From: Euglena gracilis
Lineage: Eukaryota
Direction of reading: 5' to 3'
Length of the DNA stretch: 64,000 bases
NCBI GenBank assembly: GCA_039621445.1
Contig: CP154954.1
Location: forward strand, 29,950,395-30,014,394
In this document: piece by piece, positions 3,964-27,066 of the stretch
Numbering within the stretch: the first letter of the stretch is position 1
Layout: every line of letters starts with the position of its first letter
Notes under the pieces: generated by a model
The model's database searches: none
Told to the model about the DNA's origin: nothing
The model's input: the letters and a program-made list of their open reading frames with translations, nothing else
Translations under genes and position numbers: made by a program

Positions 3964-6900
3964 GCATGCAGGGGGTGGTGGCCTGAAGCTGAAAATGTAG
4001 AAGAACTGTTTGTTGAAAGAATTCTCTTGAAGAACCCCGGGGTTGTTGAGCTCCGGGGCCAGAATTTTTTGGGCTGGCTAGCAGGCTGAATTCGACCAAC
4101 CTTGGGGGGAGGAATTTGACCAACTTTGGGGGGGGGAGGCTGGTCTCGGAGTGCCCTAAAGTACCTGGGCAGGCAGGCACTACCCCCTCTCGGGGATGGG
4201 GGGTCCTAAAAGCGCCTAAAAATGGGCTTTTCCGAGCTTTCTTCGCTTTATTCACCGGAATTGGCCAAATGCCCAGGCACTTTTGGCCATGTGCCCTGCC
4301 ACCCCCCCCCCCCGCGGGTCGGATCTGGGTGCAGTGCCGCACCCCCCCCCCAGGGTGGGGTGGGCACCGCCTTAAAATTCAGCCTGCGGGCTAGCCTGGG
4401 AGGGACCAGTAAGTTCGATAAAAGGCACCCCCCCTGCATAATGGCACAGTCAGGGTGACTGATTTTCGGCCAGGTGCTTTGCGCCGGGCCAAAAAAAATT
4501 ACACCCCAAAACCGGCCAAAGATGCCATCTTGGGCACTTTTGGGGACAATGCCAAAAAAAAATCCCCAAAAATATTAGTGCAAAGCGCGGGAAGGGGAAA
4601 AAAAAACAAACCATTTTGGGGGTCCCGGGTACCCCCCCCAGGGTCTGTCCAAACCCCCTCAGCAGGTGGGGGGGGGGGTCCAGAAGGGGGTGGGGGAATC
4701 CCCCCCAACCCGTACGCACACCCTCCATACGAACCCTGGACCCCGGCCAAGGAAATGCAAATTGAGAACCTGCCCAAAAAGGACGCAACGCTGTTTCAAA
4801 AAATGACCAGAAGTCTACTGCAAACTTTTCGTAGCAGTGGGAACATCGGACGATATACGTCTGGGGGAATCGAAGGTCAATATCGACCACTTCGAAGTGA
4901 TAGGCATATTGCCAGTGGTAAAAGACTTGCAGACTGCTGCAGAACATGTTTTCCGCCAATTTGGCGATATTTTCAGGTAGTGGGTAAAATTCCCACTCCA
5001 GGCCTTTTGGAGGCAGTCAAAACTTGGATCATTATCCTGTAAATTTTCAGTGCTTTGCGCCGAAAGTTTTCTGACTGGACCCAGCACCAGCACCTGGGGG
5101 GGCCGCTACTGTGGCTGGGCAGGGCCAAATCCTGGGCTGGCGGTTGGAGCAGCATCACCATTATTGTTCACAAAGCACATATGCGCACATCCAAAGACCC
5201 CCTGGCCTTCAGATGCCACCCTTTGTACAGAATCCAACACCTCCTTCGCGACGCTGTCCCGAGAGGTGGGCTCCAAAGTGGGTTCCTTGTTGGACGTGGG
5301 CTCTTCGGCGGTGGCGGAGGGAGGCGGGGCCGGGAACAGCTCCTCAATCTCGGGGTGGAAGTGGGCCATCTCCTTCCAGAAGAGGTCTCGCAAGGTGGCT
5401 GCATCGGGGTAGTCAGGCGTAGGCCCGCTGTGACGTTGACTGACTGGAATGACTGCCCAAACGAAGCTTTTTTTGTGCAGAAGCCTGCCCTGGAAGGTGA
5501 CCAGCAGACAGATGCATCATCCCATCGAAAAAACCGTCAGATCCAGCAAAGAATGGAAAAGGCACTCACAGCAATGGTCTAGCCGCTATCCCACCTCCAC
5601 TTGAAGGTGTTGTTGGATCGGGTGCAAGAGTCTGGACCAGAGAATTTCTGATGCCAGAAGGGGGGAGTTGAACCAAGTTACAGTGCGGACAACTCGGGGG
5701 GGAAATTGCAGGAAAAATATTACGGGGAAAAAATTATGGGGAGTTTTCGATTTTGAAGGAAAAAAACATGGGAAAATTAAAATTCTCTGGGAAAATGGTG
5801 GCGATTTTTTTCAGTTGTAACGAAGATCTTTTGGCAAAAAGCCAACTCATTCAAAAGTCAAAAAAAAGTCAAAATGAACTTACGGGGGTCTTTGTCATGC
5901 CTTTGGCGCCGGGGTCACTGCCGACCCCCCCGGGGGGGAGGGGGTCCGGGCCCAAAACCAGTCAGTCACTCTGAAAAAACCAGTCAGTCACCCCGGGGGG
6001 GCGGGGGGGTGTGTGACAATGCTTAAAAAATTGTCGGATTCCAACCTGAATCCATTCAAGCAACCCATTCGAGCAAAAAGTTTTCTGCGATGGCGCATTT
6101 TCCCAGCAGTGAAACACGGTTGGGCGAAGGCCCTGGTGAATTGTTCCCACCACCCAGCCTGGCACGGGACCCCCCCCCCAGGGAGGGAACCCCAAAAGTC
6201 GGGGCCACCTGAGGGCAATTCCCAAAAAAAATTGGCGCTTCAGCCGAAACCCATACCCGGGCCTCCGGCTCGGGACCCCGACCTCGGAACCCCCCCCCCC
6301 CGGGGTCTTCTGACTTAAACAGAAGCCTGACACGTACATGCAATATGACATTGATTTTAAAGAACATTGATTTGATTTGTAAGCATGAGTCCCTCATGCT
6401 TACAAACATGGGGGGTTGCACTTCCCATGCACGCGCCACGGCTTCTTCTCTGCTGATGCCCAGCTCAAATCCCCAGGCTCTTCAGAAATGCCCTGGCTTG
6501 GCCGGTGGCACTCCGCCAGATACTGGTGGTCCAGCAGCCAGTCCGCACTCCAGCGCTTGTAGGGGTTGAAGGCCAGCATGTGCCGGGTGAAGTCCATCGC
6601 CTGCGGCTTGATGTCGGCGGGCAACAGGTGCCGGAGGTCCATCGACGGGGCCCTGGGGCCTCTCAGTTCAAACTGGGTGGCCCAGCGAGGCAGCTTCAGC
6701 CTGCAAACAACAAAAAAGGAACAAAAGGTGCTGGCTGCCCCCGGCTTCAGGGGATTGATTTTAGGAGGCACCGGGGAGATTTCCAGGATACACCTGGACA
6801 CCCCAACCCGTCGGTTGGGTGCGGGTACCATGAAGTAGCTGCCTTCAATTCTCGGAAATGCTTGCACCTTGTGCCAAAGGTTGGTCCAAAATACATCCAA

Positions 6901-27066: not shown

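What the first reader, a model, noticed from the sequence alone, without database searches (positions are those of the whole stretch)
3964..26874. All 13 MAPK introns lack GT-AG and pair their ends in one fixed register
Deduced introns (minus strand, terminal dinucleotides): 26541-26874 GA..TG; 26398-26502 GT..TC; 16036-26306 GA..TG; 12139-15980 AA..CT; 11865-12095 GG..GC; 11559-11767 GA..AA; 9251-11495 AG..GC; 8368-9212 GA..AT; 7912-8318 AC..TG; 6647-7702 TC..CC; 5633-6498 AG..CA; 5415-5584 GG..CT; 3964-5207 GG..GC. In each, base +n pairs with -(n+2). Seven have literal CAG at +4..+6 and CTG at -8..-6. In each case a junction obeying this register gives an in-frame kinase. Established: this is the euglenid nonconventional intron signature, and its splicing mechanism is unresolved. 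Standard gene finders would miss this gene.
Basis: partly seen in the sequence, partly recalled or inferred. Interest (0 to 1): 0.8.

Follow-up and report, generated by a model that had tools for sequence, protein, structure and literature searches.

The report
Euglena MAPK gene, all introns nonconventional
This is an expressed Euglena MAP-kinase gene whose introns all belong to the already described euglenid "nonconventional" class, which lacks GT-AG ends and is marked by a short helix joining the two intron ends; it is a clean textbook example, not a new kind of thing.

Summary
RNA reads and RNA contigs from 4 runs confirm introns 4-13 at exactly the stated lengths and places, and also the acceptor of intron 3. 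A transcript-derived protein (EG_transcript_45214, 136 aa, identical) confirms introns 1-4 at protein level. No mRNA-equivalent placement of any intron gives GT-AG, GC-AG or AT-AC. In the register +n:-(n+2), 71 of 84 positions at +4..+9 are Watson-Crick pairs. The other 16 registers give 12-28, and 20,000 random controls never exceed 50.

It was described in 2014 and dissected genetically in 2025 as 5'-N3CDG/CH'GN5-6|R. Nonconventional introns are 57-72% of Euglena introns.

Additions here:
- A 14th nonconventional intron lies in the 3'UTR. It is cut at two places 2 bp apart on the same helix, and both keep the register.
- A candidate 15th intron exists.
- Only 7 of 14 introns carry the published letter code, while 14 of 14 keep the pairing and a purine at the downstream exon start.

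Novelty: already known. Interest is low.

The parts
1091..27081 (-). Whole transcribed MAPK locus as far as traced: candidate trans-splice acceptor down to the candidate last 3'UTR exon junction
27067..27081 (-). Two candidate spliced-leader acceptor AGs (27081-27080 and 27068-27067) behind a C/T-rich tract, just upstream of the ATG.
   Evidence: sequence read; outron features in Gao 2024
26875..27066 (-). Exon 1, coding part, ATG at 27066-27064 (64 codons, Gly-rich loop GQGSYG)
   Evidence: identical to P0001
26541..26874 (-). Intron 1, 334 nt, GA..TG, triplets CAT/ATG, 4 equivalent placements
   Evidence: protein level only
26503..26540 (-). Exon 2
26398..26502 (-). Intron 2, 105 nt, GT..TC, CAG/CTG. 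It has a 5' GT only, the type called intermediate/nonconventional in older terms.
   Evidence: (protein level only)
26307..26397 (-). Exon 3
   Evidence: its end is read in the loose end at 16037
16036..26306 (-). Intron 3, 10,271 nt, GA..TG, TAT/ATA, 6 equivalent placements
   Evidence: acceptor confirmed by loose ends at 16037 in 4 of 4 runs
15981..16035 (-). Exon 4
12139..15980 (-). Intron 4, 3,842 nt, AA..CT, CAG/CTG
   Evidence: joint 12138>15981 in 4 of 4 runs
12096..12138 (-). Exon 5
11865..12095 (-). Intron 5, 231 nt, GG..GC, TAT/ATG (G-U at +4), not slidable
   Evidence: joint 11864>12096, both=0, 4 of 4 runs
11768..11864 (-). Exon 6
11559..11767 (-). Intron 6, 209 nt, GA..AA, CAG/CTG, not slidable
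   Evidence: joint 11558>11768, both=0, 4 of 4 runs
11496..11558 (-). Exon 7
9251..11495 (-). Intron 7, 2,245 nt, AG..GC, TGG/CCA, not slidable
   Evidence: joint 9250>11496, both=0, 4 of 4 runs
9213..9250 (-). Exon 8
8368..9212 (-). Intron 8, 845 nt, GA..AT, CAG/CTG, helix reaches +1, 5 equivalent placements
   Evidence: joint 8364>9210, both=4, 4 of 4 runs
8319..8367 (-). Exon 9 (activation loop with T-N-Y)
7912..8318 (-). Intron 9, 407 nt, AC..TG, CAG/CTG
   Evidence: joint 7910>8318, both=1, 4 of 4 runs
7703..7911 (-). Exon 10
   Evidence: best solved-structure matches are MAP kinases
6647..7702 (-). Intron 10, 1,056 nt, TC..CC, CCT/AGG, 8 equivalent placements, register not unique
   Evidence: joint 6646>7703, both=7, 4 of 4 runs
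6499..6646 (-). Exon 11
5633..6498 (-). Intron 11, 866 nt, AG..CA, CAG/CTG
   Evidence: joint 5632>6499, both=3, 4 of 4 runs
5585..5632 (-). Exon 12
5415..5584 (-). Intron 12, 170 nt, GG..CT, TAG/CTA
   Evidence: joint 5413>5584, both=1, 4 of 4 runs; a second allele with one changed exon base beside the joint is spliced at the same place
5208..5414 (-). Exon 13
3964..5207 (-). Intron 13, 1,244 nt, GG..GC, CAG/CTG
   Evidence: joint 3962>5207, both=1, 4 of 4 runs
3752..3963 (-). Exon 14, last coding exon, stop TAG at 3807-3805
3509..3751 (-). Intron 14 (new here), in the 3'UTR, 243 nt, GA..AT, AAC/GTT at +4..+6/-8..-6. A minor form, 3511-3749 (239 nt), is cut 2 nt further in at both ends and puts CAG/CTG at +4..+6/-8..-6.
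   Evidence: joints 3507>3751 and 3509>3749 in 4 of 4 runs, about 4:1
3424..3508 (-). 3'UTR exon 15. Part of the RNA runs on unspliced below 3424.
   Evidence: contig pieces 3301-3508; loose end at 3424
1091..3423 (-). Candidate intron 15, 3'UTR, 2,333 nt, GC..GC, not slidable. The helix at +9..+16 is in the same register; the proximal triplet fits only with a 1-nt offset.
   Evidence: loose end at 3424 (72 reads, one run). Its last 16 letters match the window once, at 1075-1090; ends analysed.

Best explanation
The region is an expressed, minus-strand MAP-kinase gene of Euglena gracilis. It encodes 478 codons and has a T-N-Y activation loop. Its primary transcript carries at least 14 introns, 13 in the coding part and 1 in the 3'UTR, and all are of the euglenid nonconventional class.

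Each intron is marked by a helix of about 12 bp between its two ends. The helix starts 3 nt inside the 5' cut and ends 5 nt inside the 3' cut, so +n pairs with -(n+2). A purine follows each cut. The introns have no GT-AG ends and no U1-type 5' site. The helix brings the two cut sites side by side; the exons are joined and the intron is released.

What is shown here:
- the junctions in RNA
- the register and its statistics
- co-variation of the +4..+6/-8..-6 triplets
- the absence of any canonical placement
- near-complete removal in steady-state RNA

What comes from the literature:
- the helix, the 3-nt and 5-nt spacers and the downstream purine are required for splicing
- excised introns are full-length circles without a lariat

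What is inferred: the chemistry is most likely a spliceosome-independent cut-and-rejoin. A structure-reading endonuclease would cut both strands with a 2-nt stagger, and an RNA ligase would join the exons and circularise the intron. I put the identity of the class at about 0.95 and this mechanism at about 0.5.
For: Gene and frame: one open 478-codon frame. P0001 (named EG_transcript_45214 by its source) is identical to codons 1-136. P0001 and exon 10 hit solved MAP kinases best, at E 2e-29 and 1e-12. They also hit Pfam Pkinase, though exon 10 alone scores 24.5 bits, below the curated cut-off of 31.7. The model is 66-82% identical to 8 longer relatives.

RNA: 10 of 10 laid coding introns are confirmed in 4 of 4 runs with the exact lengths. 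Each joint has about 180-320 joint reads in run X21. The stranded run X24 has first mates on + (30 against 1.6 in the first bin), as expected for a minus-strand RNA. Depth inside introns is about 0.1-1, against about 330-400 at exon SNP sites.

No canonical ends: none of the 44 mRNA-equivalent placements of the 14 introns is GT-AG, GC-AG or AT-AC. For introns 1-4, no junction pair within +-40 nt that reproduces P0001 is canonical either.

Register: 71 of 84 pairs against 12-28 in other registers, with a null maximum of 50 in 20,000.

Other features:
- End-to-end folding energy (10+U7+10) has a mean of -7.5 kcal/mol against -1.9 for random pairs, and 1 of 14 introns is at zero against 32% of random pairs.
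- A purine starts the downstream exon in 14 of 14, and a purine is at intron +1 in 13 of 14.
- 11 of 14 are slidable, like 84% in E. agilis.

Published requirements and circles. Endonuclease-plus-ligase proposals.
Against: The mechanism is not shown by anything here. No circular (back-joined) intron reads appear among the 15 joints listed; 57 further joints were not shown.

Positions +1..+3 are paired no more often than chance (3, 2 and 6 of 14). The cuts therefore lie in an unpaired 3-nt/5-nt internal loop and not inside a duplex, which is unlike classical RNase III substrates.

Only 7 of 14 introns meet the published letter code. In the published assay, single changes in CAG or CTG abolished splicing.

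Introns 1 and 2 are confirmed only through a protein, not through reads. One intron (6647-7702) has a second well-pairing placement. The organism name rests on a source's transcript name and on coded run labels, not on a held genome.
Confidence: 0.9

Rival explanations
1. The same introns are removed by the ordinary, or an adapted, spliceosome. The terminal helix would only bring degenerate splice sites together, as proposed for the non-canonical introns of the tunicate Fritillaria.
For: A full spliceosome exists in Euglena, which also has GT-AG introns and spliced-leader trans-splicing. Intron 2 starts with GT. This possibility is listed as open in the 2025 diplonemid paper.
Against: None of the 44 equivalent placements has canonical ends. 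The pyrimidine share at -30..-6 is 0.44-0.72, with no consistent tract. The published assay shows that a 3-nt and a 5-nt spacer measured from the helix decide splicing, and that fully synthetic helices work. Excised introns are reported as full-length circles without a lariat (review passage; the primary paper was not read).
Confidence: 0.15
2. The 'introns' are artefacts. Either reverse transcriptase skips hairpins or switches at short repeats during library making, or the reads come from an intron-less copy elsewhere in the genome.
For: The ends form hairpins and 11 of 14 junctions have 1-7 nt of microhomology. Both features are known causes of template switching (recalled, general knowledge). 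No genome is held in which to search for a second copy.
Against: The same 11 joints appear in 4 of 4 runs from different studies and years. Three junctions have no microhomology. The spliced product is one open frame, 66-82% identical to full-length relatives across every junction. Reads inside the introns are about 0.1-0.3% of exon depth, so almost all the RNA lacks them. Published genomic PCR against RT-PCR of knock-ins shows removal at the RNA level for this class.
Confidence: 0.02
3. The terminal inverted repeats are only the scars of MITE-like transposons that became introns, and the fixed register reflects the element's ends plus target-site duplication rather than a signal read by a splicing machine.
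For: A transposon origin is the favoured view in print. Junction microhomology resembling target-site duplications is present in 11 of 14. Interior repeats are shared between introns 4 and 10 (403 bp, 81%), 3 and 4, and 7 and 13.
Against: The shared repeats are interior, not terminal, and the 14 pairs of ends are not one sequence family. The triplets co-vary (CAG/CTG, CAT/ATG, TAT/ATA, TGG/CCA, CCT/AGG, TAG/CTA, AAC/GTT) while the register stays fixed. This points to selection on pairing. Mutational tests show the helix and spacers are functionally required. Origin and function are not exclusive.
Confidence: 0.1

Closest known systems
Euglenid nonconventional introns (Milanowski et al. 2014 model; Nomura et al. 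2025 code 5'-N3CDG/CH'GN5-6|R)
   Same: No GT/C-AG ends, a helix between the ends starting at +4/-6, a 3-nt 5' spacer and a 5-nt 3' spacer, a purine at the downstream exon start, frequent slidable junctions, and a wide length range (105 to 10,271 nt here). All were tested here and met.
   Different: Only 7 of 14 carry the C-D-G/C-H-G letters; the other 7 keep the pairs with other letters. That is in line with the 38.8% of E. agilis nonconventional introns reported outside the code. The 10,271-nt intron is longer than the longest nonconventional intron (5,931 nt) in the draft-genome catalogue of Gao 2024, which was limited by short contigs.
'Overlapping' alternative splicing of E. gracilis introns (Gao et al. 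2024)
   Same: The 3'UTR intron has two forms that differ at both ends (243 and 239 nt), the pattern that paper counts 59 times.
   Different: Here the two forms are shown to be the same helix cut 2 bp apart, both keeping the +n:-(n+2) register. The form without CAG/CTG at +4..+6 is the commoner by about 4:1. I saw no such reading in the sections of that paper that I read.
Noncanonical introns of hemistasiid diplonemids (Thakur et al. 2025)
   Same: They lack GT-AG and their ends pair strongly. The same open question and the same candidate mechanisms apply: RNase III plus ligase, a tRNA-splicing-like route, or an adapted spliceosome.
   Different: A different lineage with G/C-rich ends. No fixed 3/5-nt register is stated in the passages I read.
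Endonuclease-ligase splicing (tRNA and archaeal bulge-helix-bulge introns; Ire1 with HAC1/XBP1 mRNA)
   Same: The substrate is recognised by structure, not by snRNA pairing. tRNA introns can be released as circles. This route was proposed for euglenid introns in print.
   Different: No bulge-helix-bulge and no Ire1-type loop motif is present at these ends: the cut sites lie in a 3-nt/5-nt asymmetric loop at the base of one long helix. No Ire1 ortholog was reported in E. gracilis ESTs. Membership is not claimed.
Transposon-derived spliceosomal introns (introners; Fritillaria and dinoflagellate MITE-like introns)
   Same: Terminal inverted repeats and duplication-like junction repeats; recent gain.
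   Different: Those are removed by the spliceosome at (near-)canonical sites created by the insertion. These have no canonical placement at all.

Membership tests
Euglenid nonconventional intron | No GT-AG or GC-AG ends at any placement that gives the same mRNA | tested here: met
   0 of 44 equivalent placements of 14 introns are canonical. For introns 1-4, none of the protein-preserving junction pairs within +-40 nt is canonical.
Euglenid nonconventional intron | Intron ends pair, +4..+6 with -8..-6, bringing the splice sites together | tested here: met
   +4, +5 and +6 are paired in 14, 14 and 14 of 14 (Watson-Crick plus G-U). 71 of 84 Watson-Crick pairs at +4..+9, against a null maximum of 50. 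Folded ends.
Euglenid nonconventional intron | Published letter code 5'-N3CDG ... CH'GN5-6|R (Nomura 2025) | tested here: inconclusive
   7 of 14 meet it in full; the minor form of intron 14 also does. The other 7 keep spacing, pairing and the purine but have other letters. The paper itself finds the code in 61.2% of such introns.
Euglenid nonconventional intron | Purine at the first base of the downstream exon | tested here: met
   14 of 14
Euglenid nonconventional intron | Removed from the mature mRNA at the RNA level | tested here: met
   11 joints in 4 of 4 RNA runs, with low-depth intronic reads. Introns 1-3 are supported through P0001 and a loose end. Removal at the DNA level was not excluded with a DNA run here.
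Euglenid nonconventional intron | Host is a euglenid (or diplonemid) | tested here: met
   An identical protein is named EG_transcript_45214 by EukProt. The nearest relatives include entries named EG_transcript_6740 and RCo028634. I recall these prefixes as E. gracilis and Rhabdomonas costata transcriptomes. No genome is held.
Euglenid nonconventional intron | Excised as a full-length circle without a lariat | not tested
   No back-joints for these introns are among the 15 joints shown (57 not shown).
Mitogen-activated protein kinase | Protein kinase domain whose closest relatives are MAP kinases | tested here: met
   Pfam Pkinase on P0001 and on exon 10, the latter at 24.5 bits, below the curated cut-off of 31.7. 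The best solved-structure matches of P0001, exon 10 and relative P0003 are all MAP kinases, at E 2e-29, 1e-12 and 4e-97.
Mitogen-activated protein kinase | T-x-Y dual phosphorylation motif in the activation loop | tested here: met
   T-N-Y followed by [10 protein letters not shown] in the translation. The same T-N-Y is in relatives P0003, P0005 and P0008. That T-x-Y defines the family is recalled knowledge.

The most novel reading that the evidence does not exclude
What the unknown machine reads may be the geometry and not the CAG/CTG letters: a helix base with a fixed 2-nt stagger between the two cuts. That stagger is the one an RNase III-type double-strand cut leaves as a 2-nt 3' overhang.

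Three observations in this one gene point that way:
- Seven efficiently removed introns carry seven different co-varying triplets in the same register.
- The 3'UTR intron is cut at two positions exactly 2 bp apart on one helix. Its 5' cut and its 3' cut move in opposite directions, so the stagger is kept.
- The commoner of those two forms (about 4:1 in four runs) is the one whose helix begins at +4 with AAC/GTT, not the one that puts CAG/CTG at +4..+6.

The published spacer tests changed one side at a time, which also changes the stagger. They would therefore not distinguish 'distance to CAG' from 'stagger'.
Probability: 0.3. Interest if true: 0.5.

Novelty: already known. Interest (0 to 1): 0.2.

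Why it matters
The class matters. It is a second, widespread way of removing introns from nuclear mRNA, and its enzymes are unknown. It also defeats standard gene finders in Euglena and its relatives. This locus adds no new kind of element.

Its use is as a compact, well-expressed natural test set:
- 14 introns from 105 to 10,271 nt in one transcript, half with and half without the published letter code.
- Three introns with unambiguous junctions.
- One intron with two helix-locked cut positions.

These are ready substrates for the existing knock-in assay and for circle and end-chemistry mapping.

Tried and rejected
The MAPK identity was instead tested with stored proteins and single-exon references.

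2. No whole genome is held for the window. Paralog copies, intron-less copies and candidate splicing enzymes could therefore not be searched.

3. Run search: no RNA holder was listed on record. Twenty rows hold part of the stretch and are only guessed to be RNA. Four raw RNA runs came by species label. The evidence comes from laying the reads, not from this listing.

4. Read laying allowed one call of 20,000 bases.

5. Circles: no back-joint of these introns is among the joints shown. This is not evidence either way.

6. Exon-exon pairing beyond the cuts: positions 0 to -5 in the same register pair in 1-7 of 14, with no clear signal.

7. A common terminal sequence family among the introns was rejected. 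The only inter-intron similarities are interior repeats.

8. Earlier notes of this scan: two look-ups, nothing held.

9. Literature search for 'RNase III' with 'nonconventional introns' found one paper, which already proposes RNase III plus ligase. That idea is therefore not new. I did not see the 2-nt stagger argument in the passages I read, but supplements and the primary circle paper (J Mol Biol 2021, not in the library) were not seen.
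Full report
**What is there**

On the minus strand between about 27,081 and at least 3,424 lies one gene. The first 136 codons are identical to a transcript-derived protein that its source names EG_transcript_45214 (P0001).

The evidence that it is a MAP kinase:
- P0001 and exon 10 on their own hit Pfam Pkinase, though exon 10 alone scores 24.5 bits, below the curated cut-off of 31.7.
- Their best matches among solved structures are MAP kinases, at E 2e-29 and 1e-12.
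- The nearest full-length relative, P0003, is 66% identical to the model and matches MAP kinases at E 4e-97.
- The activation loop reads T-N-Y, as in three relatives.

**Check of the observation**

I laid two RNA contig sets and two raw RNA-seq runs on 3301-23300 (one call of 20,000 bases was allowed). All 10 coding introns inside that stretch appear as joints in 4 of 4 runs. The skipped lengths are exactly 3842, 231, 209, 2245, 845, 407, 1056, 866, 170 and 1244 nt. In raw run X21 each joint has about 180-320 joint reads.

The junction freedom left by the RNA (bases that fit on either side) is 1, 0, 0, 0, 4, 1, 7, 3, 1 and 1.

The acceptor of the 10,271-nt intron 3 is confirmed by loose ends at 16037 in 4 of 4 runs that read on into the end of exon 3. 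Introns 1-4 are confirmed at protein level.

The stranded run has its first mates on the + strand, about 30 against 1.6, as expected for a minus-strand RNA. Depth inside introns is about 0.1-1, against about 330-400 at exon SNP sites. Steady-state RNA is therefore almost fully spliced.

**No canonical ends**

Across all 44 mRNA-equivalent placements of the 14 introns, none is GT-AG, GC-AG or AT-AC. The extra protein-preserving shifts for introns 1-4 are not canonical either. Intron 2 has a 5' GT only.

**The register**

With +n paired to -(n+2), 71 of 84 positions at +4..+9 are Watson-Crick pairs, or 77 with G-U. The 16 other registers from -6 to +10 give 12-28.

The control used 20,000 sets of random pseudo-introns of the same lengths, each given the best of the same number of sliding positions. 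It gave a mean of 31.0, sd 3.8 and maximum 50.

Along the intron, pairing behaves as follows:
- Positions +1..+3 pair at chance level (3, 2 and 6 of 14).
- +4, +5 and +6 pair in 13-14 of 14.
- Pairing stays at 8-12 of 14 through +15 and falls to background by +18.

The typical structure is therefore a helix of about 12 bp. Its base sits 3 nt from the 5' cut and 5 nt from the 3' cut.

The three introns without any junction freedom obey the register, so it is not a product of choosing among sliding positions. One caveat concerns intron 6647-7702. It has 8 placements and GC-rich ends, and it pairs nearly as well in another placement.

Folding 10+U7+10 nt of the ends gives a mean of -7.5 kcal/mol against -1.9 for random pairs. 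One of 14 introns is at zero, against 32% of random pairs. This is close to the 3-4% against 35% published for nonconventional against GT-AG introns.

**What it is, against the literature**

This is the euglenid nonconventional intron. The relevant papers are these.
- Milanowski et al. 2014 (PMC3935182; sections 8 and 10 and further passages read) describe pairing of +4,+5 with -7,-6, usually CA/TG. They also describe a pyrimidine before and a purine after each cut, and slidable junctions.
- Gao et al. 2024 (PMC11170887; sections 4 and 9 read) catalogue 28,337 E. gracilis introns, of which 16,151 are nonconventional. They give the consensus CCAGG at +3..+7 and CCTG at -9..-6.
- Nomura et al. 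2025 (PMC12501133; Results and Discussion read) find 71.8% nonconventional introns in E. agilis. By knock-in mutagenesis in E. gracilis they define 5'-N3CDG/CH'GN5-6|R. This includes the 3-nt and 5-nt spacers, the need for pairing and the downstream purine. They state that the trans-acting factors are unknown.

Measured against that code:

| Feature | Count here |
|---|---|
| 3/5-nt spacing with pairing | 14 of 14 |
| Purine at the downstream exon start | 14 of 14 |
| Purine at intron +1 | 13 of 14 |
| Slidable junction | 11 of 14 |
| C-D-G/C-H-G letters | 7 of 14 |

The other seven triplet pairs are CAT/ATG, TAT/ATA, TAT/ATG, TGG/CCA, CCT/AGG, TAG/CTA and AAC/GTT. The published share inside the code is 61.2%.

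If introns were independent, a run of 14 nonconventional introns would have probability about 0.0004 at a 57% share, or 0.01 at a 72% share. This is my arithmetic. Among tens of thousands of genes that is not remarkable.

**Additions beyond the finding**

(1) A 14th intron lies in the 3'UTR at 3509-3751 (243 nt). It is seen in 4 of 4 runs and obeys the same register, with nine consecutive pairs from +4.

(2) A minor form of it, 3511-3749 (239 nt), is also seen in 4 of 4 runs.

| Run | Major form | Minor form | Measure |
|---|---|---|---|
| X21 | 216 | 56 | reads |
| X24 | 30 | 5 | reads |
| X1 | 2139 | 561 | contig depth |
| X3 | 855 | 190 | contig depth |

The two forms are the same helix cut 2 bp apart. 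The 5' cut moves 3'-ward and the 3' cut moves 5'-ward, so the register is kept. The minor form is the one that places CAG/CTG at +4..+6/-8..-6. The major form is the one whose helix starts at +4. Mixed forms (241 nt) are not among the 15 joints shown, but 57 joints were not shown. This matches the 'overlapping' alternative splicing counted by Gao et al..

(3) A candidate 15th intron lies at 1091-3423. In one run, 72 reads leave the window sequence at 3424. The last 16 letters of their consensus match the window once, at 1075-1090. The ends are GC..GC and not slidable, with pyrimidine|purine at both cuts and a helix at +9..+16 in the same register. The proximal triplet fits only with a 1-nt offset. 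Unspliced RNA through this point also exists.

(4) A second allele with a changed base beside the intron-12 acceptor is spliced at the same place.

**Mechanism**

Shown here: the junctions, the register, the co-variation and the efficiency of removal.

Shown in print: the requirement for the helix, the spacers and the purine. Also reported in print are removal after conventional introns and release as full-length circles without a lariat (review passage; the primary 2021 paper is not in the library).

Inferred: a structure-reading endonuclease plus an RNA ligase. This was proposed in 2014 by analogy with tRNA/archaeal and Ire1 splicing, and in 2025 as RNase III plus ligase.

My own addition is that +1 facing -3 is the 2-nt 3'-overhang stagger of RNase III-type cuts. 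Against it, +1..+3 are not paired here. I put about 0.5 on cut-and-ligate, about 0.15 on an adapted spliceosome, and very little on artefact.

**Verdict**

The kind is already known and, since 2025, genetically dissected. The locus is a good natural substrate set but not a discovery. Interest 0.2.

Noticed in passing
window 28882-29862 (+) and 50178-52343 (-): Two long ORFs (326 and 721 aa) match Pfam reverse transcriptase RVT_1 (E 2e-7 and 1e-10). They look like retroelement remnants beside the MAPK gene.
   Followed up: partly
window 3780, 5339, 5412, 16021: Exonic single-base differences are carried by about a quarter to three quarters of the RNA reads where they occur; the one at 5339 is seen in the two raw-read runs only. 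The one at 5412 is absent from run X1. This points to at least two expressed alleles or near-identical copies, all spliced alike.
   Followed up: no
introns 4 and 10 (within 12139-15980 and 6647-7702); also introns 3/4 and 7/13: Interior interspersed repeats are shared between introns, for example 403 bp at 81% identity in opposite orientation between introns 4 and 10. The matches start at least 68 nt inside the introns, away from the terminal helices. RNA contig depth is very high over parts of intron 4, as for a multi-copy element.
   Followed up: partly
window 20120-21031 (-), inside the 10-kb intron 3: A 303-aa ORF lies on the gene's strand with no Pfam match. RNA depth in its bin (3-5) is somewhat above the rest of the intron.
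   Followed up: no
window 8038-8153, 16541-16635, 22295-22433, 23933-24514: Simple repeats lie inside the introns: (TGT)39 in intron 9, and in intron 3 a 95-nt C run, a (TG)71 tract and two 63-bp tandem arrays.
   Followed up: no
P0002 (window 26695-27066, minus strand): The protein database holds a 124-aa open-frame call that reads exon 1 straight into intron 1. This is an example of how frame-based calling mis-handles the gene.
   Followed up: no
exon 9, window 8319-8367 (-): The activation-loop motif is T-N-Y rather than the common T-E-Y, T-D-Y, T-G-Y or T-P-Y (that list is recalled). T-N-Y is conserved in relatives P0003, P0005 and P0008, which suggests a euglenid MAPK subfamily.
   Followed up: no
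window 3681-3698 (inside intron 14), about 20557, and 5954-5994 (inside intron 11): Many reads end in long G runs at homopolymer tracts. This is most likely a sequencing or alignment artefact at poly-C/G, not a processing site.
   Followed up: no
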